Notes under the pieces: model-generated
The model's database searches: none
Told to the model about the DNA's origin: nothing
Seen by the model: only the letters and a program-made list of their open reading frames with translations
Shown here: positions 25,381 through 32,547 of the stretch, in pieces
Numbering within the stretch: the first letter of the stretch is position 1
How the letters are laid out: each line of letters starts with the position of its first letter
Position numbers and translations under genes: made by a program
Sequence record: NC_008515.1
Direction: 5' to 3' (one strand)
Length of the DNA stretch: 64,000 nt
DNA from: Escherichia phage RB32

Positions 25381-27477
25381 TTATCCTTGAACGAACTTGT
25401 AAGGCATGTTTGTAATATCTATGCAAGACGCAATAATTCCAAGAGATGATTCTACTTTCTGTTTAACATTTGATGAAACAAATGATGCAAAGTCAACTCT
25501 GTCTTCTACTTCAATATCACCTGTCATTGCAACTACTTCGCCGGTTTCCATTAGACAGTCTCCGTCATAAATTACCGATTCGGTGAGTTCTTCTGTGGTC
25601 ATAACTTCAGCTTGAATGAGTTTTGTATTATTAGATGTTGTTCCGTCATTATTAGAAGCATCAGTTATTTTATTAACTTTGACCATCAACCCGCGCGGTA
25701 GAATAACTTCAGCTTCTGTTGCTATTCCGAGACTTCCTGGATATACAACATTAACTTTATGAGCTCCATCAATTGCCCATCCTATTTGAACTTTAACGTA
25801 TTCAGGATTTTCTTTATACGCTCTTATTTCGTTTGGATTAATAGTTATTCCTTCTTCATTTTTATCAACTGTTAATTCGTTACGAGCTTCTGGTTCTAAA
25901 AGACCAATACCAGCATGTGTAATTCCAAAACGTCCAAAAATGATAGGAGTTAAAGAAGTAGATACAAAATTTCTGAAATAGAACACTTTATTTTTAACTA
26001 GTGCTTCGTATATAGGAGCAGTCATACTTTGAGCACGATAAACTGTAATGCCTTCCGGTATGCGGTCACCATTTTCAAAAGCTGAATCTAAATTATTTAT
26101 AGCAGATTCAATTTCTTTTTCACTCATTACATCATATCGTTCTGGATTGTAACGACCTAAAAGAAGATTATTAATGTCTGTATATCCTGAACCACAATAC
26201 TCTCTAATACCGCGCTTTTGTGATGGAGTATATTTAGAACCATCACGGGCAATAGTAATATCAATCATTGGACCAGCACCAATTCCAGAAAAGCTATAAA
26301 TCATTCGTTTGAGGAATTTAGTTTTTGCTGCATTCCAGGCATTTTTAGTTATTTCTCCCCAGACTTCATCTGGTTGCCCTTTACGAGTTTTATTATGTTT
26401 ATCAAGCCAATTATCTTTATATTCTTCAAAGAATTTATTAACAGCTGCTGCGTATTTCTCTAAACATTTTATTGAAGTAGTTGGCTCATTTTTTATCGCG
26501 TTAAAAATTACATCTTTAATTTTTTCGGAAACTTCATCAACCTCACTTTTTGAAAAGAATTTATAGTCATAGTGAAGTTCATTCGCAGTTCCTTCGGCAA
26601 TAATTTTTGCTGCCTTAGTTTTAGAAGCTAATGAATTAATTCCAAGCTTCATTTCTTCTGCTTCGGGAATTAAAGGAGCGGTAGCAGGTTTATTGAAATT
26701 AGCTGCGGTAGATTCATACTTCTGGAATAATTCACTTTCAAACCTAGAAGATTCCAATGATTGACTTTGCGCAATTGCTCTACGGGAAATTTTAACTTTA
26801 ACGATTACAGCTTGGTCAGAACGTTTATCATTTTCTTGCGCAATAGATGCTGCAATTGCCTCATTTTTAGTTACTTGGGCTCCAGTATCTTTATTGATAT
26901 AAACATCACCGACCTTCGATTCAACTTTAGTAAAGAGCTCGGTACTAATTTCCGGAACTCCTGGAATGTCTTCTAGTGATACATTTTTGCGATGTATAAG
27001 AATATATGCATACTTTTTATCATAATCCCAGAGTTCCTTAAGAAGGACGTATCTACCACCTGAACGACTACGGATAAGTCTATCAGCAATAACTTGAATT
27101 TGTCGAGCTTGGCCAGCAGTTTTAGACTTAAGAATACGAAGCATACAAGCATCAATTTTATACTGACGCATCGTTTGCATTGCAACAGTAAAAACTGAAT
27201 TGATATAATTAATTGGGCTTGGACCAAGACCTTTTAATTTAGCAATTGAACCTTTAGCAGTTAATGTAAAAGGAACAATATGCATCATTTTATCGCCCAT
27301 TTTTAAATCGCGATTAGTATCACCTCCAGATGTATAGGTACATAAACGAAAGCCTGGTTGTTCAATTGCATCATCAACATGAACTGAAAAAATTTGCGGT
27401 ATTTTCTTCTTTGGATTTAAGTTTGTAATCGGAAGAGTAGTATCTTCGTCAAATAATTCTGTAATGAGTTCCATCAT
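25381..27477 (-). CDS. alt: Alt, RNA polymerase ADP-ribosyltransferase (injected internal head protein)
   Basis: 698 aa; N-terminus MELITELFDEDTTLPITNL recognised as T4 Alt; R-STS-EAE motifs present. Confidence 0.9.
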   Translation of the reverse strand: MMELITELFDEDTTLPITNLNPKKKIPQIFSVHVDDAIEQPGFRLCTYTSGGDTNRDLKMGDKMMHIVPFTLTAKGSIAKLKGLGPSPINYINSVFTVAMQTMRQYKIDACMLRILKSKTAGQARQIQVIADRLIRSRSGGRYVLLKELWDYDKKYAYILIHRKNVSLEDIPGVPEISTELFTKVESKVGDVYINKDTGAQVTKNEAIAASIAQENDKRSDQAVIVKVKISRRAIAQSQSLESSRFESELFQKYESTAANFNKPATAPLIPEAEEMKLGINSLASKTKAAKIIAEGTANELHYDYKFFSKSEVDEVSEKIKDVIFNAIKNEPTTSIKCLEKYAAAVNKFFEEYKDNWLDKHNKTRKGQPDEVWGEITKNAWNAAKTKFLKRMIYSFSGIGAGPMIDITIARDGSKYTPSQKRGIREYCGSGYTDINNLLLGRYNPERYDVMSEKEIESAINNLDSAFENGDRIPEGITVYRAQSMTAPIYEALVKNKVFYFRNFVSTSLTPIIFGRFGITHAGIGLLEPEARNELTVDKNEEGITINPNEIRAYKENPEYVKVQIGWAIDGAHKVNVVYPGSLGIATEAEVILPRGLMVKVNKITDASNNDGTTSNNTKLIQAEVMTTEELTESVIYDGDCLMETGEVVAMTGDIEVEDRVDFASFVSSNVKQKVESSLGIIASCIDITNMPYKFVQG

Positions 27478-27526: not shown

Positions 27527-27715
27527 TTAATAATCTATTGGTAAGAGAGTACGATATATTTCAAACTTTGGACCTTTTTCATAGGCATCAAATGTTTCTG
27601 TGAATTTATTATAAGCATATGCATCTATAAATTCAATCATGATTTGTGATACAGAAGTAGAAACATCTCCACCTTCTTTTTGAGCCACGACAATTGTTTC
27701 TAAGTAAGCTTTCAT
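27527..27715 (-). CDS. Hypothetical small protein between gene 30 and alt
   Basis: 62 aa; ATGA start/stop overlap with the gene 30 stop. Confidence 0.55.
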   Translation of the reverse strand: MKAYLETIVVAQKEGGDVSTSVSQIMIEFIDAYAYNKFTETFDAYEKGPKFEIYRTLLPIDY

Positions 27716-29172
27716 AGACCAGTTACCTCATGAAAATCACCAAATACATCTTCGAATGTATTAGCTTTAGTTTTATCTTCACGTAAACGAATCGCAATCG
27801 GAAGAAATAATTTAACGTAATCAGTGCGGCCATCAGATTTTAACCAACCGTTGCATTCGCACTCTAGAATTTTTCCAATATAATAATTTTGGTTTTCCAT
27901 GATGCGAGTACGGTCAAGTTCATGTGATTTTACACCGGCTTTATCTTTTAAGCCTGAACCAGCATTTACTTTAATTTTTCCACACTCTGATTCAAGAATA
28001 AATCCACCTGCTTTAGTAGGGTCTTTACGGTGAGGATAAATTCCTACAATTTTTAAATCAACATCAATTACTTCTTTAAATTTATAGAGATTTTTTGAAC
28101 GAGCATTTTCCCACAATCCATCGGTATTTTTGAGAATAATACCTTCAAGACCTTGGTCAATATACTTTTTGTAAATAACCTTAGCTTCATCTAGGTTATT
28201 TACTACCTGGTTTTCAATTAAAATTACTTTATCATAGCCTGATGTCATTTGTTCTAGTTTAGAAAAACGTACATCATATTTTAAACGAAATGCTGGAAGA
28301 CCGTATACTTCTACCAACGGTACATAATCCCAGACCTGAAACTTCATGCATTGAGCTTCTTTTTCTGAAATAGTTCCTTTTAAAGATTTATTAGCGATTC
28401 CATTAGAAGCAGTACGTGATTCAGCTACTTCTGTGAAGTCTTTAGCTTTGCTAATTTCAGGAGTGTCAAAAAGAAAATCTAGGCCTTCTGATTCCTTTTT
28501 AACTTGCTCATGGTATACCAATTCGCCATCAATTAACACACCTTCTGGATGAATCTGGCGGGCTTCAGCAGTCATTTTGATTAACTCTTCCTTAAGAAGA
28601 TCTAATCCTAGGTATTCATTACCAGCTCGTGATAAAAGACGAACATCATCTAATTCATCACCTCTGACTTCAGCAAAGCACCGAGCTCCATCAGCTTTTA
28701 ATTGGGCAAAGGCTGGAAATTTGATATTCTTATTAATGCCTTTTTCATCATAAGAACTTGCCAGCATTTGAGGTTGTTCAGGAATTAAACCTGGCCAAAC
28801 TTTGTTTGCAATAGATACTGATGCACCGCATTCAAGGTCTCGCATCATCACCCGACGCAAAACTTCAACATCATCTTTTTTACCGTCAGTAATATATCCA
28901 GTTAATTCCTCAATTGCCGCATTTCCAGTCAATTTCCGAGTAGCTAACGTGAATTCAATGAAGTCAAGCATATCGGTAAGAGTCAACATTCCAAAACTCT
29001 GGGTAGCAATACCAGGTTTAGGCCATTTCTTGATATAATACTGTAACCCACGAGAATAAGTCAGACGATATACTCGTTTAAGCAATTCATTATCTTTATT
29101 CTTTTCAAGAATTGCTTGCTTCTGCTTAGTTGAACCAATAGATGCTATTTCGTTCAGAATTTTAAGAATCAT
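27712..29172 (-). CDS. 30: ATP-dependent DNA ligase gp30
   Basis: 486 aa; N-terminus MILKILNEIASIGSTKQKQAILEKNKDNELLKRVY recognised as T4 DNA ligase. Confidence 0.97.
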   Translation of the reverse strand: MILKILNEIASIGSTKQKQAILEKNKDNELLKRVYRLTYSRGLQYYIKKWPKPGIATQSFGMLTLTDMLDFIEFTLATRKLTGNAAIEELTGYITDGKKDDVEVLRRVMMRDLECGASVSIANKVWPGLIPEQPQMLASSYDEKGINKNIKFPAFAQLKADGARCFAEVRGDELDDVRLLSRAGNEYLGLDLLKEELIKMTAEARQIHPEGVLIDGELVYHEQVKKESEGLDFLFDTPEISKAKDFTEVAESRTASNGIANKSLKGTISEKEAQCMKFQVWDYVPLVEVYGLPAFRLKYDVRFSKLEQMTSGYDKVILIENQVVNNLDEAKVIYKKYIDQGLEGIILKNTDGLWENARSKNLYKFKEVIDVDLKIVGIYPHRKDPTKAGGFILESECGKIKVNAGSGLKDKAGVKSHELDRTRIMENQNYYIGKILECECNGWLKSDGRTDYVKLFLPIAIRLREDKTKANTFEDVFGDFHEVTGL

Positions 29173-29438
29173 TGTTCATCCTTTAGAGTTTGGTTTACAG
29201 CTCTATTATAAATCAATTCATCATTAAGCTCAGTCAAAGACCTGTGGTACGTGGTTCTAACTTTATTTCCTTGCATCCAGTGCTTGACGTAAATGAAACC
29301 TTGCTCTACACATTTTTTAAAAATTCGTTCGTCTTTTTGAGCTCGGAATTCTGGATTGCATCTAAAAAATTGATTTACGTGACCGTAATCACGTGTAGTA
29401 TTACCTTCATTTTCATAAATAGTGTGAACGACAAACAT
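29169..29438 (-). CDS. Hypothetical protein (position of 30.1)
   Basis: 89 aa ORF in tight operon arrangement. Confidence 0.6.
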   Translation of the reverse strand: MFVVHTIYENEGNTTRDYGHVNQFFRCNPEFRAQKDERIFKKCVEQGFIYVKHWMQGNKVRTTYHRSLTELNDELIYNRAVNQTLKDEQ

Positions 29439-30277
29439 TAGAATGCTCCTTGGAAAATATTATCACCACTAGTAGGTCTATTATACAAATACTCTATGCC
29501 ACCAGGTTTAATATAGTTCCATGTCTGAAACGGATGTGTCTGATATGGATGATATAGATGATTATAAGGATTAAATCCAGGAGTTCTCCAGGTAGTGTTC
29601 CAAGGAAAAGAATCGTTTTTAATCATCTTTTCAATTACATCTTTTATAGCTTTTTCACTATCAAAACTTTCTTTATTTTCCTTCGATGGAAAAAGCTTAT
29701 TCTCGACATCATTCCATGTATAAACTCGCTGAGCAGTTTTTGGAATACTGTCACGCTCCCCTCGAGCCATCCAATAAACAGGAACATTTAATATTTCACT
29801 CGCATGATCGCAGTGATGAGCGAGATCGTCAATATAACAAATTACGTTATATTTCTCTTTTGCCTTTTTGAACAACTCTTCTTTTGAAGAATCATGACCA
29901 CACATCATTACTTCTGAGAAGGCACCAGGAAAAAGAGCATTCAAATTAAATTGGCGATTCAACAGAGCGTCAATAGAATCACCTAATGCTGTAACAGCTA
30001 CAAAATTATAATCTTCTTTTAATTTGTTAATTACACACAGGGCATCTTTATACGGAGACAAGTAACGAATAAAATCTGAACGATTGTATTTTTCAATTAA
30101 CTTGACGCCAAGTTCTTCGTCACAATTAAAGAGTTTACCTGGAGAAATAAATTTCTCATCTTGGATCATTTTTAAAATATGTTCTAACGGAAGATTATAT
30201 TTCTGGGCAAAATAAGGAAGGCCTGATTGCCAGCTTAAACATACTCCATCAATATCAGTCAAAATAGTTGGCTTCAT
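29438..30277 (-). CDS. HAD-superfamily phosphatase-like protein (position of 30.2)
   Basis: 279 aa; motif I LTDIDGV, motif II FVAVTA, motif IV YIDD; aromatic-rich C-terminal tail. Confidence 0.65.
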   Translation of the reverse strand: MKPTILTDIDGVCLSWQSGLPYFAQKYNLPLEHILKMIQDEKFISPGKLFNCDEELGVKLIEKYNRSDFIRYLSPYKDALCVINKLKEDYNFVAVTALGDSIDALLNRQFNLNALFPGAFSEVMMCGHDSSKEELFKKAKEKYNVICYIDDLAHHCDHASEILNVPVYWMARGERDSIPKTAQRVYTWNDVENKLFPSKENKESFDSEKAIKDVIEKMIKNDSFPWNTTWRTPGFNPYNHLYHPYQTHPFQTWNYIKPGGIEYLYNRPTSGDNIFQGAF

Positions 30278-30738
30278 AGAGAGTCTCTTAATAGATTTAA
30301 CACATCAATAAATTCAGCTTCGGTTAGTATTGTATCATCTTTTGTTAGACCACTAGCCATGCTGTGCTTCAAAACTTTTCCTTTCGAGGCTTGTAATGCA
30401 TCACGAAAGCCCCTGTTTTGGATCGCTGCTTCAAAATATGCATTTGTGTATAATTCTTTCCACGCTGGAGAGTATCTTGAAAATGGAACTCCAAGCCAGA
30501 ACAACGTGCCACGGTCCTGAGCTCTAGCATAAGCTCGTCCAGCTTGTTGGGCGGCAAGCCCGGATAAACCAAATATACGACGTTGTTGTTCAACATTTTT
30601 CACTTTGCATCCTTGGAGGAATCCTTCAAGACCTCCGAATTGAATACCATCCATGACGAAAGGCCATTGGGCGAAATTGCTTAATGCACATGATGGCCAT
30701 CTAAAATTGCTTCTAATCTCTAACTCAGACATTTTCAA
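30274..30738 (-). CDS. NADAR/YbiA-like (DUF1768-type) protein (position of 30.3)
   Basis: 154 aa; LSNFAQWPFVMDG resembles the YbiA/NADAR signature FSNFAAWPIKVDG (from memory). Confidence 0.6.
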   Translation of the reverse strand: MKMSELEIRSNFRWPSCALSNFAQWPFVMDGIQFGGLEGFLQGCKVKNVEQQRRIFGLSGLAAQQAGRAYARAQDRGTLFWLGVPFSRYSPAWKELYTNAYFEAAIQNRGFRDALQASKGKVLKHSMASGLTKDDTILTEAEFIDVLNLLRDSL

Positions 30739-31125: not shown

Positions 31126-31463
31126 TAGAACCTCATTTGAAAACCGTGCGATTTAACATTACCGCCGCCAATATCAGAAATGTTAATTTCACGCGCAATT
31201 GAAGGGTCAATGTCAATTTCACGATTGAGTTTAGTGATAGCTAAAGTATCACGCCCATTTACTGTACGAAATTCTAAAGGACAAACCACATCAACGTAAT
31301 TTTTAATCGATTCACTGGTAGGTTGCAAATGTGCAGAAAGGTCTTTGGGCGCCTTTGAGAAAACAACTTCACAGAAATTTTTGCGGGTGTCAAAATAAGT
31401 AGTCATAAACATAATGTTTTCCTCAGTAAGGGGCCGAAGCCCCTGTTTTATTTTAAATATCAA
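31125..31463 (-). CDS. Hypothetical protein (30.x cluster)
   Basis: 112 aa ORF; start codon uncertain. Confidence 0.5.
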   Translation of the reverse strand: MIFKIKQGLRPLTEENIMFMTTYFDTRKNFCEVVFSKAPKDLSAHLQPTSESIKNYVDVVCPLEFRTVNGRDTLAITKLNREIDIDPSIAREINISDIGGGNVKSHGFQMRF

Positions 31464-31818
31464 ATTCGTTAAGAACTACATCAAAGATTGCTTCAAGATG
31501 CTCAGGTTTAGCTCTGTTACTCAGAATATGACGAATCCAAGTTTTAACCAAAAGCTTGCGATTAGCACCATTCCAGCAAGGATGAGTCCCTAAATCGCGT
31601 TGACGAAAATCATCATCCAAAGCAATTTTGAAGTTGGAACCTTCCATAGTGATGGAAACTGTAATACCATTTTCAAATCGCATATAAACGTAGTTAGGAG
31701 TCATATACTGTTCAATTTCGCATACTGATCCATTTTGATGTTTCCAAAGGCAGATGGTATCAATAGAACCTGCAATACCATTAGAAACATATTTACGTTC
31801 AAAGTTGATGTAGTTCAT
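31453..31818 (-). CDS. Hypothetical protein (30.x cluster)
   Basis: 121 aa ORF; ATG checked at 31816-31818; early promoter just upstream. Confidence 0.6.
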   Translation of the reverse strand: MNYINFERKYVSNGIAGSIDTICLWKHQNGSVCEIEQYMTPNYVYMRFENGITVSITMEGSNFKIALDDDFRQRDLGTHPCWNGANRKLLVKTWIRHILSNRAKPEHLEAIFDVVLNEFDI

Positions 31819-31886: not shown

Positions 31887-32219
31887 TTATTTTACTATTT
31901 TCCAATGCTGCATGTCAAGTTTACCAACTTTTTTCATCTTCTCAATCAAACGTTCGGCACGTTGGCGAGCTGTAACATAATGCCATTCGCCTAATTCATT
32001 TTGTTCAATTTTTCCAACGATTACTGTATTCAATTCATAAATCCAACCAGTAAAGAAATTATGAACTTGAATTGTAAAGGTGAAATCTGTTCCCATACCT
32101 TCTGTTGTTTCTACTTCAATAATATCACCTTCAACTGCCATTAAGAACCACATAGTTTCATCATATTTACCATTGAAGCATTTAGTTTTAACTGTAGCGT
32201 TCAGATTAATCGTTTTCAT
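31887..32219 (-). CDS. Hypothetical protein (30.x cluster)
   Basis: 110 aa ORF; ATG checked at 32217-32219. Confidence 0.6.
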   Translation of the reverse strand: MKTINLNATVKTKCFNGKYDETMWFLMAVEGDIIEVETTEGMGTDFTFTIQVHNFFTGWIYELNTVIVGKIEQNELGEWHYVTARQRAERLIEKMKKVGKLDMQHWKIVK

Positions 32220-32293: not shown

Positions 32294-32323
32294 GGAAAAT
32301 AAAAAGGACTCCCGAAGGAGTCC
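32294..32323 (-). terminator. Rho-independent terminator (GGACTCC-CGAA-GGAGTCC plus T-run on - strand)
   Basis: Perfect 7-bp stem, tetraloop, T-run; directly after the 32329 ORF stop. Confidence 0.65.
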
Positions 32324-32328
32324 TCAAC

Positions 32329-32547
32329 TTATGCTTTCTGCTTACCAAAACGAGAAGCATCATCTCGAAGAACCGCACGTGCTCGGCGCATGATCTTCTC
32401 AACAGTTTGATTGATACGAGAGTTCGACCCACGCTTGTAGCCAGCGCGTTTAGAATCACCAACTTTCTTTTCAACTGCTTTCTTTGCTTTAGCTTGTTTT
32501 GCCATTATAAATTCTCTTTTAAATGAAAATGCAGGACTTATTGGCAT
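32329..32547 (-). CDS. Small basic (K/R-rich) protein (position of 30.9); start may be the internal ATG at 32505
   Basis: 72 aa ORF; lysine-rich MAKQAKAKKAVEKK segment; followed by terminator. Confidence 0.55.
   Translation of the reverse strand: MPISPAFSFKREFIMAKQAKAKKAVEKKVGDSKRAGYKRGSNSRINQTVEKIMRRARAVLRDDASRFGKQKA

What the first reader, a model, noticed from the sequence alone, without database searches (positions are those of the whole stretch)
29438..30277. HAD-superfamily phosphatase-like protein with an aromatic-rich C-terminal tail
The 279-aa ORF has HAD motifs I (LTDIDGV), II (FVAVTA) and IV (YIDD), typical of phosphatases or 5'(3')-nucleotidases. A C-terminal ~60 aa rich in W/Y/F/P/H (PWNTTWRTPGFNPYNHLYHPYQTHPFQTWNY) is unusual for this fold and may be a targeting or binding module. 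In a phage with modified-nucleotide metabolism, a nucleotidase could shape dNTP pools or remove a signalling nucleotide.
Basis: partly seen in the sequence, partly recalled or inferred. Interest (0 to 1): 0.4.

Follow-up and report, generated by a model that had tools for sequence, protein, structure and literature searches.

The report
T4 gene 30.2: nucleotidase-like HAD phosphatase
This is gene 30.2 of a T4-like phage: a well-conserved enzyme of the HAD phosphatase class that most resembles enzymes removing the phosphate from DNA building blocks. It carries an unusual floppy, aromatic-rich tail that only some relatives have. It is a sensible but fairly ordinary annotation gain for a gene still listed as 'unknown function'.

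Summary

Pfam and NCBIfam miss the protein directly, and PHROGs files it in phrog_420, 'unknown function'. Family profiles link it specifically to 5'(3')-deoxyribonucleotidases (Pfam NT5C). Its best solved relatives are nucleotidases, and a bridging homologue clears Pfam's NT5C threshold and aligns to the 30.2 family at 99.5% hhalign probability.

The tail is real and unusual: 41% W/Y/F/H/P, the most extreme stretch in the window. It is predicted disordered, absent from most relatives, and fast-evolving (dN/dS about 0.3 against 0.01-0.04 for the core). It ends in a conserved peptide, GG-IEYLxxxPT.

The best explanation is a Mg-dependent nucleoside-monophosphate phosphatase with a lineage-specific docking tail. 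Its substrate is unknown. The gene is dispensable in laboratory screens. It lies between adfN (an anti-DarTG1 NADAR enzyme) and the DNA ligase, which suggests testable but unproven links.

The parts
29438..30277 (-). Gene 30.2 coding sequence (279 aa plus stop), orthologue of T4 30.2
   Evidence: ORF list. 100% nucleotide identity to phage RB33, and the gene is annotated 30.2 in AR1 and PP01.
29693..30277 (-). HAD catalytic core plus cap, residues 1-195
   Evidence: pLDDT above 94 over this range. HAD fold matches. Core dN/dS 0.01-0.04.
30242..30262 (-). HAD motif I, LTDIDGV (residues 6-12). D8 is the predicted nucleophile and D10 the predicted general acid/base.
   Evidence: D8 and D10 are invariant. 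They align with N12 (the D12N mutation) and D14 of mouse cdN structure 2jao, and with DMDEV of 3bwv.
30008..30241 (-). Helical C1-type cap inserted between motifs I and II (residues 13-90). It carries conserved W16, S18, F43, Y64, S67 and F69.
   Evidence: Helices 16-26, 32-40, 46-49, 54-66, 68-72 and 77-86 in the model. Conservation. These positions align with aromatic residues of the cdN cap.
29987..30004 (-). HAD motif II, FVAVTA (residues 92-97), with T96
   Evidence: T96 is at least 90% conserved and A97 is invariant. It aligns with 'ATA' of 3bwv.
29882..29884 (-). HAD motif III lysine, K132
   Evidence: Invariant in both alignments. Aligns with the Lys of 3bwv.
29825..29836 (-). HAD motif IV, YIDD (residues 148-151). 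D150 and D151 are the predicted Mg2+ ligands.
   Evidence: D150 and D151 are invariant among T4-like homologues. The consensus is ED in the wider family, where D151 is at least 90% conserved.
29618..29680 (-). Amphipathic linker helix, residues about 200-220
   Evidence: Helix 200-220 in the model at pLDDT about 70-88. Its sequence is poorly conserved.
29504..29617 (-). Aromatic/proline-rich low-complexity spacer, residues 221-258
   Evidence: pLDDT about 45-60 with no secondary structure. Composition outlier. In-frame indels between close relatives.
29441..29503 (-). Conserved C-terminal peptide, residues 259-279 (GG-IEYLYNRPT-SGDNIFQGAF)
   Evidence: The motif [ILVT]E[YW]xxx[QR]PT lies 6-10 residues from the C-terminus in 19 sequences, namely RB33 plus 18 cluster representatives. 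It occurs nowhere else in the window.
30274..30738 (-). Upstream neighbour, gene 30.3 = adfN (NADAR DNA ADP-ribosylglycohydrolase). Its stop overlaps the 30.2 start (ATGA).
   Evidence: Pfam Phage_30_3, E=1e-69. Function from PMC11825919. Junction read directly from the sequence.
29169..29438 (-). Downstream neighbour, gene 30.1 (DUF3045, 89 aa). Its start overlaps the 30.2 stop (TAATG).
   Evidence: Pfam DUF3045, E=3e-64. Junction. Its presence co-occurs with the tail.
27712..29172 (-). Gene 30, ATP-dependent DNA ligase, next in the same gene string
   Evidence: Pfam DNA_ligase_A_M. It lies within about 700 bp of the HAD gene in 67 of 79 related loci.

Best explanation
gp30.2 is a Mg2+-dependent phosphomonoesterase of the HAD superfamily with a helical C1 cap. 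It belongs to a large phage family (phrog_420) that is a divergent offshoot of the 5'(3')-deoxyribonucleotidase (NT5C) group.

Inferred mechanism, from established HAD chemistry: D8 attacks the phosphate to form an aspartyl-phosphate intermediate; D10 protonates the leaving nucleoside oxygen and then activates water; T96 and K132 hold the phosphate; D150 and D151 hold Mg2+. The cap closes over a small substrate, and conserved aromatic residues (W16, F43, Y64, F69) form the nucleoside pocket.

The most likely substrates are nucleoside or deoxynucleoside monophosphates, so the enzyme would trim or rebalance the nucleotide pool during infection. It is an auxiliary rather than an essential function.

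The C-terminal 80 residues are not part of the enzyme. They comprise a linker helix, a disordered aromatic/proline-rich spacer and a short conserved terminal peptide. Together these most likely act as a lineage-specific tether that docks the enzyme onto a partner that is not yet identified.

Shown here: the fold, the motifs, the family relationship, the tail's disorder, variability and composition, and the gene linkage. Inferred: catalysis, substrate class and the docking role.

For: Motifs: D8, D10, K132, D150 and D151 are invariant and T96 is at least 90% conserved. They persist down to 21% identity.

Nucleotidase link:
- The A2 profile's best PDB hit is cdN, E=0.035, aligned over motif I and the cap.
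- The wider A3 profile's best hit is 3bwv, a putative 5'(3')-deoxyribonucleotidase, at E=1.5e-5 and aligned end to end. Next come the yeast SDT1/SSM1 pyrimidine nucleotidase structures and, more weakly, an XMP phosphatase.
- 33 of 67 scanned family members hit Pfam NT5C, against 15 for Hydrolase and 13 for HAD_2.
- P0212 scores 35.6 bits against the NT5C cut-off of 24.8, and aligns with the 30.2 family at hhalign probability 99.5%, E=1e-22, over 185 columns.
- Secondary PHROG hits are to '5'-3' deoxyribonucleotidase'.
- Named BFVD structural neighbours are mostly '5' nucleotidase'.

Context: replication and nucleotide-metabolism genes surround relatives outside the T-even phages. These include ribonucleotide reductase and thymidylate synthase, and the order clamp loader, dCMP deaminase, a 97-aa ORF, HAD, PhoH.

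Precedents: PBS1 Dtm is a PF06941 dTMP phosphatase that was found by the same kind of structural similarity at 16% identity (PMC12697855). T5 Dmp is a dNMP phosphatase that remodels dNTP pools (PMC12265719).

Tail: pLDDT below 60. It is absent in 44 of 102 close cluster representatives and in 134 of 144 wider representatives. Tail dN is 0.092 against 0.002 for the core, with dN/dS about 0.3 and in-frame indels. The terminal peptide is conserved.

Dispensability: T4 30.2 knock-down is scored 'Not Fit' (PMC11879866 supplement).
Against: The query itself matches no Pfam or NCBIfam HAD or NT5C model, even at E<=1, so the NT5C link is transitive.

No biochemical data for any phrog_420 member were found.

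T4 recycles host-derived dNMPs, so a broad dNMP phosphatase would seem counter-productive. No particular substrate is suggested by T4's known hydroxymethylcytosine pathway.

The docking role of the tail is inference only. No partner is identified, and the motif occurs in no other protein of the window.
Confidence: 0.68

Rival explanations
1. gp30.2 is a capped HAD phosphatase acting on a small phosphoester that is not a nucleotide, such as a sugar phosphate (ribose-5-phosphate), phosphoglycolate or a cofactor precursor.
Against: Sequence-level evidence points consistently to nucleotidases. Conserved cap aromatics align with those of cdN. Gene contexts are nucleotide and DNA metabolism.
Confidence: 0.15
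2. gp30.2 is a polynucleotide 3'-phosphatase that heals DNA ends for the adjacent DNA ligase. This would be an end-healing and sealing pair like PNKP with a ligase.
For: The ligase lies within about 700 bp of the HAD gene in 67 of 79 related loci. That includes two clades in which the order is inverted but the proximity is kept. Weak PHROG hits to polynucleotide kinase occur for the query (E=0.003) and for P0125 (E=6e-7). PNK/phosphatases appear among the BFVD structural neighbours.
Against: The protein has a roughly 78-residue helical C1 cap. In established HAD classification such caps go with small substrates, and polynucleotide phosphatases are cap-less. These phages already carry a PNK with a HAD_PNKP domain in the same region. 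Linkage to the ligase disappears in the more distant family members, and the T4-like core is broadly syntenic anyway. Matches to NT5C are stronger and full length.
Confidence: 0.07
3. gp30.2 works with the upstream AdfN (gp30.3) in counter-defence against DNA ADP-ribosylation. It would either clear breakdown products of released ADP-ribose, such as AMP or ribose-5-phosphate, or be the unidentified T-even factor that AdfN needs for full activity.
For: adfN and 30.2 overlap by 4 nt (ATGA). When adfN is present it always lies upstream on the same strand, within 1 kb, in 31 of 79 loci. AdfN-T4 does not rescue uninfected E. coli, and is said to need 'an as-yet unknown T4 factor' (PMC11825919). In cellular genomes, ADP-ribosylglycohydrolase neighbourhoods are often coupled to phosphatases, including a 'HAD superfamily 5' nucleotidase', predicted to process the released ADP-ribose (PMC9503650).
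Against: The HAD gene occurs without adfN in 48 of 79 loci, even after an iterative search, so its core function cannot depend on AdfN. T4 has well over 200 other candidate genes for the potentiating factor. The paper maps the resistance determinant to 30.3 alone and did not test 30.2. Tail presence is negatively associated with adfN (odds ratio 0.26).
Confidence: 0.07
4. gp30.2 is a catalytically dead HAD scaffold whose real function lies in the tail.
For: The gene is dispensable in a laboratory knock-down screen. The tail carries a conserved terminal peptide.
Against: All catalytic residues are invariant across hundreds of sequences, and the core has dN/dS 0.01-0.04. Most family members have no tail at all.
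Confidence: 0.02

Closest known systems
5'(3')-deoxyribonucleotidases, Pfam NT5C / PF06941 (human and mouse cdN and mdN; S. epidermidis 3bwv)
   Same: Both have a HAD core with a helical C1 cap of similar size. All four motifs align end to end with 3bwv. Motif I and the cap align with cdN, and W16, F43, Y64 and F69 fall on Phe20, Phe46, Tyr67 and Phe72 (or the adjacent Phe73) of mouse cdN. From my recollection of the published cdN and mdN structures, not verified here, the first two form the base-stacking pair. The bridging homologue P0212 clears the Pfam threshold.
   Different: The query itself does not hit the Pfam model. Sequence identity is only about 14-20%. The family has its own invariant residues, namely R108, N111 and W188, and in this lineage an 80-residue C-terminal extension.
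Phage PBS1 dTMP phosphatase Dtm (PF06941)
   Same: It is a phage-encoded, NT5C-type, Mg-dependent HAD nucleotidase. It was identified by structural similarity to the mitochondrial deoxyribonucleotidase at about 16% identity, and it shapes the nucleotide pool (PMC12697855).
   Different: Dtm serves dU-DNA synthesis by removing dTMP. T4-like phages have no equivalent need, and no direct sequence comparison was made here. No tail is reported for Dtm.
Phage T5 deoxynucleoside 5'-monophosphatase Dmp
   Same: It is a phage dNMP phosphatase that remodels host dNTP pools, and it is not essential. Mutations in it change the interaction with a nucleotide-sensing defence system, Clover (PMC12265719).
   Different: Dmp is a pre-early gene linked to host DNA destruction and the export of nucleosides. 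Homology to gp30.2 was not tested here, and it does not belong to phrog_420 as far as these searches show.
T4 polynucleotide kinase 3'-phosphatase domain (HAD_PNKP)
   Same: Both are HAD phosphatases of the same phage, with weak profile similarity.
   Different: The PNK phosphatase acts on polynucleotide ends, lacks a large cap and is fused to a kinase. gp30.2 stands alone and is capped.

Membership tests
HAD superfamily | Rossmann-like HAD core fold | tested here: met
HAD superfamily | Motif I, DxDx(T/V), with the nucleophile Asp and the Asp+2 acid/base | tested here: met
   D8-I-D10-G-V12. D8 and D10 are invariant and align with the catalytic pair of cdN and 3bwv.
HAD superfamily | Motif II Ser/Thr, motif III Lys, and motif IV acidic pair | tested here: met
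   T96 is at least 90% conserved. K132 is invariant. D150 and D151 are invariant in T4-like members, with an ED consensus in the wider family.
HAD superfamily | Mg-dependent phosphoryl-transfer activity | not testable with these tools
   This needs an enzyme assay. No published assay was found.
HAD C1-cap class (small-molecule substrates) | Helical cap inserted between motifs I and II | tested here: met
Pfam NT5C (PF06941), 5'(3')-deoxyribonucleotidase | The protein itself scores above the curated Pfam threshold | tested here: not met
   No NT5C hit for the query even at E<=1. NCBIfam also gives none.
Pfam NT5C (PF06941), 5'(3')-deoxyribonucleotidase | Demonstrable full-length homology to members that pass the threshold | tested here: met
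   P0212 scores 35.6 bits against the 24.8 cut-off over profile positions 2-174 of 180. hhalign of A2 against P0212 gives 99.5%, E=1e-22. 33 of 67 family members hit NT5C. 3bwv is the best PDB hit, E=1.5e-5.
Pfam NT5C (PF06941), 5'(3')-deoxyribonucleotidase | Aromatic residues of the nucleoside pocket in the cap | tested here: inconclusive
   W16, F43, Y64 and F69 are conserved and align with aromatic residues of mouse cdN. The role of those cdN residues rests on my recollection; a literature search for it found nothing. No model coordinates were available to inspect.
Pfam NT5C (PF06941), 5'(3')-deoxyribonucleotidase | Hydrolysis of 5'- or 3'-dNMPs | not testable with these tools
   This needs an enzyme assay.
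PNKP-type polynucleotide 3'-phosphatase | Cap-less active site open to polynucleotide ends, usually fused to a kinase | tested here: not met
   A large cap is present. There is no kinase domain and no HAD_PNKP Pfam hit, only weak PHROG similarity at E=0.003.

The most novel reading that the evidence does not exclude
gp30.2 is part of a counter-defence and repair string: adfN, then 30.2, then 30.1, then the DNA ligase. In this reading it is either the unidentified T-even factor that potentiates the anti-DarTG1 enzyme AdfN, or it clears nucleotide products of de-ADP-ribosylation. Its aromatic tail and conserved terminal peptide would tether it to a partner, with gp30.1 as a candidate because gp30.1 co-occurs with the tail.
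Probability: 0.08. Interest if true: 0.65.

Novelty: new member of a known kind. Interest (0 to 1): 0.33.

Why it matters
T4 is the best-studied lytic phage, yet about 100 of its genes still have no function (PMC11825919). Gene 30.2 and its whole family, phrog_420, are still labelled 'unknown function' in the T4 annotation table of the CRISPRi-ART study and in PHROGs. The family has at least 1388 cluster representatives.

Assigning the family to NT5C-like nucleotidases gives a concrete, cheap biochemical test. It would also add a missing catabolic enzyme to the T4 nucleotide-metabolism map. That is relevant now, because several bacterial defences sense or deplete nucleotide pools.

The position of 30.2, directly coupled to adfN, whose required helper factor is unknown, provides an obvious first candidate to test.

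The variable tail with a conserved terminal peptide is a small, tractable case of a phage enzyme acquiring a docking module.

Tried and rejected
- Direct Pfam and NCBIfam scans of the query gave no HAD hit; the only matches were sub-threshold ones to thiamin pyrophosphokinase models.
- A single-sequence PDB search was not significant, E=1.2.
- Literature searches for 'gp30.2' and for '30.2' with T4 found nothing relevant. The matches were DOI strings. One search failed on term length.
- The AFDB50 fold library was unavailable.
- The fusion proteins in the family (P0153, P0201, P0106, P0149, P0104) gave no Pfam domain in their extra regions, so they offer no Rosetta-stone clue.
- The cluster look-up returned no names or organisms for the bridging members.
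- The tail motifs were searched in all six frames of the window and occur only in this gene, so there is no evidence of a docking peptide shared with other proteins.
- A sequence search of gp30.3 against the PDB found nothing; its function came from the literature instead.
- The promoter and terminator scan gave counts at background level, with nothing between 30.3 and gene 30.
- A literature search to verify the base-stacking residues of mdN found nothing.
- An overlapping-gene or non-coding explanation for the tail was considered and rejected, because indels stay in frame and dN/dS is below 1.
Full report
**What is there**

The interval 29438..30277 holds a 279-aa ORF on the minus strand with an ATG start; the plus-strand reading is full of stops. 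The DNA is 100% identical to phage RB33, and 95-99% identical to about 400 other Tequatrovirus genomes. Where it is named, it is gene 30.2, 'hypothetical protein'.

The AR1 annotation and Pfam scans of the neighbours give this order along the transcribed strand:
- rIII
- 30.9 to 30.4
- 30.3 (Pfam Phage_30_3)
- 30.2
- 30.1 (DUF3045)
- gene 30 (ATP-dependent DNA ligase)
- alt.1
- alt

The genes are tightly packed. The 30.2 ATG overlaps the 30.3 stop (ATGA), and the 30.2 stop overlaps the 30.1 start (TAATG). The ORF coordinates show that the 30.1 stop overlaps the ligase start by 4 nt. Promoter-like and terminator-like matches in the region are at background level, and none separates these genes.

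**Check of the observation**

In a 99-sequence alignment of homologues, D8, D10, K132, D150 and D151 are invariant and T96 is at least 90% conserved. So are several non-catalytic residues: W16, S18, Y64, S67, D78, N84, R108 and N111. In a 67-sequence alignment that reaches down to 21% identity, D8, D10, R108 and K132 stay invariant, and W16, T96, N111, D151 and W188 are at least 90% conserved.

The tail (residues 221-279) is 41% W/Y/F/H/P, 10% charged and 8% aliphatic. No other 59-aa stretch in the 65 long ORFs of the window reaches 41%; the next highest is 36%.

**What the protein is**

Direct library scans fail:
- Pfam and NCBIfam give no HAD hit.
- PHROGs places the protein in phrog_420, 'unknown function', with only a weak side hit to polynucleotide kinase.

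Structure prediction from the alignment gives a confident model with mean pLDDT 85. Residues 1-195 are above 94. The model shows a strand bearing motif I, six helices between residues 16 and 86, and then the alternating strand-helix core.

Fold searches agree on the superfamily:
- Foldseek against the PDB finds 101 matches at E<=0.001, and the 50 listed are HAD-fold proteins. Mouse cytosolic 5'(3')-deoxyribonucleotidase is first at 5e-8. Human cdN, mitochondrial mdN and the S. epidermidis dNT-like protein 3bwv are also high.

Fold therefore establishes the superfamily and cap class but not the subfamily.

**Narrowing to the nucleotidase group**

Sequence profiles are more discriminating.

- The profile of the T4-like set finds only cdN in the PDB (E=0.035). 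The alignment covers motif I and the whole cap. D8 and D10 fall on the catalytic pair, and 2jao is the variant in which the nucleophile is mutated (D12N).
- An exhaustive profile search of 1.84 billion representatives shows that the family is large: 1388 representatives at E<=0.001 and 655 at E<=1e-10. Nearly all are 190-210 aa.
- A profile including these distant members hits 3bwv at E=1.5e-5 over its full length, aligning all four motifs and the conserved C-terminal Trp. It then hits the yeast pyrimidine nucleotidase SDT1/SSM1 structures and, more weakly (E about 0.009), an XMP phosphatase. Two weaker hits at E about 0.004 are HAD subfamily IA entries deposited as drimenol synthase.
- Of the 67 scanned members, 33 match Pfam NT5C, 15 match Hydrolase and 13 match HAD_2.
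- One member, P0212, scores 35.6 bits against the NT5C cut-off of 24.8 over nearly the whole model. It aligns to the 30.2 family with hhalign probability 99.5%, E=1e-22, over 185 columns.
- All sampled distant members are themselves phrog_420, with secondary hits to '5'-3' deoxyribonucleotidase' and to polynucleotide kinase.
- In the viral structure library, the named neighbours beyond the family itself are mostly '5' nucleotidase' or 'deoxyribonucleotidase'.
- A few database records had already used such names for homologues: JGI's '5'(3')-deoxyribonucleotidase' and 'FMN phosphatase YigB', and 'HAD-superfamily hydrolase' for a Morganella phage.

The HAD idea is therefore not wholly new, although the T4 gene remains unannotated.

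**Mechanism**

By the established chemistry of HAD phosphatases:
- D8 would form the aspartyl-phosphate intermediate.
- D10 would act as the general acid/base.
- T96 and K132 would bind the phosphate.
- D150 and D151 would bind Mg2+.

The presence of the Asp+2 residue and of the acidic motif IV argues for a phosphatase rather than a dehalogenase. The large cap argues for a small substrate.

The conserved cap aromatics W16, F43, Y64 and F69 align with Phe20, Phe46, Tyr67 and Phe72 (or the adjacent Phe73) of mouse cdN. As I recall, the equivalents of the first two sandwich the base in the cdN and mdN structures. I could not verify that here, and I could not inspect model coordinates. All of this is inference. 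No assay of any family member was found.

**Context**

Among 79 related loci, the ligase lies within about 700 bp of the HAD gene in 67. These include two clades (L002-4 and L070-72) in which the ligase is upstream rather than downstream.

An iterative search gave these counts:

| Neighbour | Loci with it (of 79) | Position |
|---|---|---|
| DNA ligase | 67 | within about 700 bp |
| 30.1 | 33 | always between the HAD gene and the ligase |
| 30.3 | 31 | always upstream, same strand, within 1 kb |

Relatives without ligase linkage sit in other settings:
- directly downstream of a fused ribonucleotide reductase and near thymidylate synthase (L008);
- in the order clamp loader, dCMP deaminase, a 97-aa ORF, HAD, PhoH (L077);
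- directly upstream of PhoH (L075, L076);
- flanked by a PD-(D/E)XK nuclease and a patatin-like phospholipase, with a gp59-type helicase loader two genes further on (L068);
- in what looks like a bacterial setting (L009).

The common theme is DNA and nucleotide metabolism.

**What the literature adds**

- PBS1 Dtm is a PF06941 enzyme, proven to be a dTMP phosphatase (PMC12697855).
- T5 Dmp is a dNMP phosphatase that remodels pools, and mutating it lets the phage escape the Clover defence (PMC12265719).
- Gene 30.3 is AdfN, a NADAR enzyme that removes ADP-ribose from DNA and defeats DarTG1. It works fully only in T-even infections and needs 'an as-yet unknown T4 factor' (PMC11825919).
- In cellular genomes, ADP-ribosylglycohydrolase genes are often paired with phosphatases, including a HAD 5'-nucleotidase (PMC9503650).
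- In a transcriptome-wide knock-down screen, T4 30.2 was 'Not Fit' (score -0.34, p=0.82). It is therefore dispensable in the laboratory, and it was still listed as unknown function (PMC11879866 supplement).

**The tail**

The tail has three parts:
- a helix at about residues 200-220 (pLDDT 70-88);
- an unstructured aromatic/proline-rich spacer, residues 221-258;
- a terminal peptide, residues 259-279.

Among cluster representatives of close homologues, 57 of 102 have a long tail and 44 have none. In the wider family, 134 of 144 have none. Phages whose core is 74-75% identical to RB33 lack the tail, while others at 67% identity have one, so it has been gained or lost repeatedly.

Between close relatives the selection measures differ sharply:

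| Region | dN | dN/dS |
|---|---|---|
| Core | 0.002 | 0.01-0.04 |
| Tail | 0.092 | about 0.3 |

The tail also shows in-frame indels. It is therefore coding in this frame, but under weaker constraint.

The motif [ILVT]E[YW]xxx[QR]PT, usually preceded by G-T-G, lies 6-10 residues from the C-terminus in 19 sequences (RB33 plus 18 cluster representatives). It occurs nowhere else in the window.

Tail presence goes with presence of 30.1: 25 loci have both, 3 only the tail, 7 only 30.1, and 31 neither. The Fisher p-value is 9e-9, but the loci are not phylogenetically independent. Tail presence goes against presence of adfN, with an odds ratio of 0.26.

The most economical reading is a disordered tether with a short docking peptide, specific to phages of enterobacteria. 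The partner is unknown, and gp30.1 is one candidate.

**Verdict**

The protein is a divergent, NT5C-like HAD nucleotidase family member with a lineage-specific tail.

- It formally fails the Pfam NT5C threshold, so I do not file it as a member of that Pfam family.
- It is homologous over its full length to proteins that pass the threshold, and most likely works like them.
- The substrate, the biological role and the tail's partner remain open.
- The ligase and AdfN linkages are suggestive but are compatible with inherited synteny.

This is a useful annotation for a well-known 'unknown' gene rather than a surprising discovery. The AdfN-helper idea is the one reading that would raise its importance, and I rate it unlikely, at about 8%.

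Noticed in passing
window 30274-30738 (-): The upstream gene 30.3 is AdfN, the NADAR DNA ADP-ribosylglycohydrolase that counters DarTG1 (PMC11825919). The RB33 copy matches the Pfam Phage_30_3 model over positions 1-138 of 138 and shows no RB69-like truncation, so RB33 is predicted to resist DarTG1. The ORF list starts it at a TTG (154 aa). T4 and AR1 annotate 459 nt, so the ATG two codons downstream is probably the true start.
   Followed up: partly
window 29169-29438 (-) and loci L011-L063: The small gene 30.1 (DUF3045) is present almost only where the HAD protein carries the long tail: 25 loci have both, 3 only the tail, 7 only 30.1, and 31 neither (Fisher p=9e-9, not corrected for phylogeny). 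In T4 its knock-down is 'Semi-Fit', which could be a polar effect on the ligase gene that overlaps its stop codon.
   Followed up: partly
L002-L004 and L070-L072: In two divergent T4-like clades the ligase lies upstream of the HAD gene, separated by one unknown gene of about 178 aa, rather than downstream. The surrounding genes are rearranged (endonuclease VII, PhoH, UvsY), yet the two genes stay neighbours.
   Followed up: partly
L075 6903-7718, L076 7112-7879, L077 6723-7535, L010 6498-7331: In distant relatives, including contigs of 460-540 kb, a PhoH-like ATPase gene lies close to the HAD gene. It is directly downstream in three of the four loci.
   Followed up: no
P0153 (591 aa), P0201 (660 aa), P0106 (430 aa), P0149 (365 aa), P0104 (347 aa): A few family members are fused to long extra regions that match no Pfam family. 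In P0153 and P0201 the HAD domain is C-terminal.
   Followed up: partly
P0078: An Acinetobacter phage homologue of the HAD protein (216 aa) is named 'DNA ligase' in its NCBI record. This is probably an annotation slip caused by the adjacent ligase gene.
   Followed up: no
window 31889-31918 (-) and 32304-32325 (-): The best sigma-70-like match in the region (TTGACA, 18 nt spacer, TAAAAT; 11 of 12) overlaps the 3' end of ORF 31887..32219 and lies about 70 bp upstream of ORF 31453..31818. A strong GC-rich hairpin followed by a T-run lies further upstream, just downstream of the stop of a 72-aa ORF (32329..32547). Overall counts are at background level, so neither site is established.
   Followed up: no
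L001 8804-12840 (phage AR1): AR1 is annotated with two adjacent alt (ADP-ribosyltransferase) genes. The window has a 698-aa Alt-like ORF at 25381-27477 (-). Whether RB33 also has a second copy was not checked.
   Followed up: no
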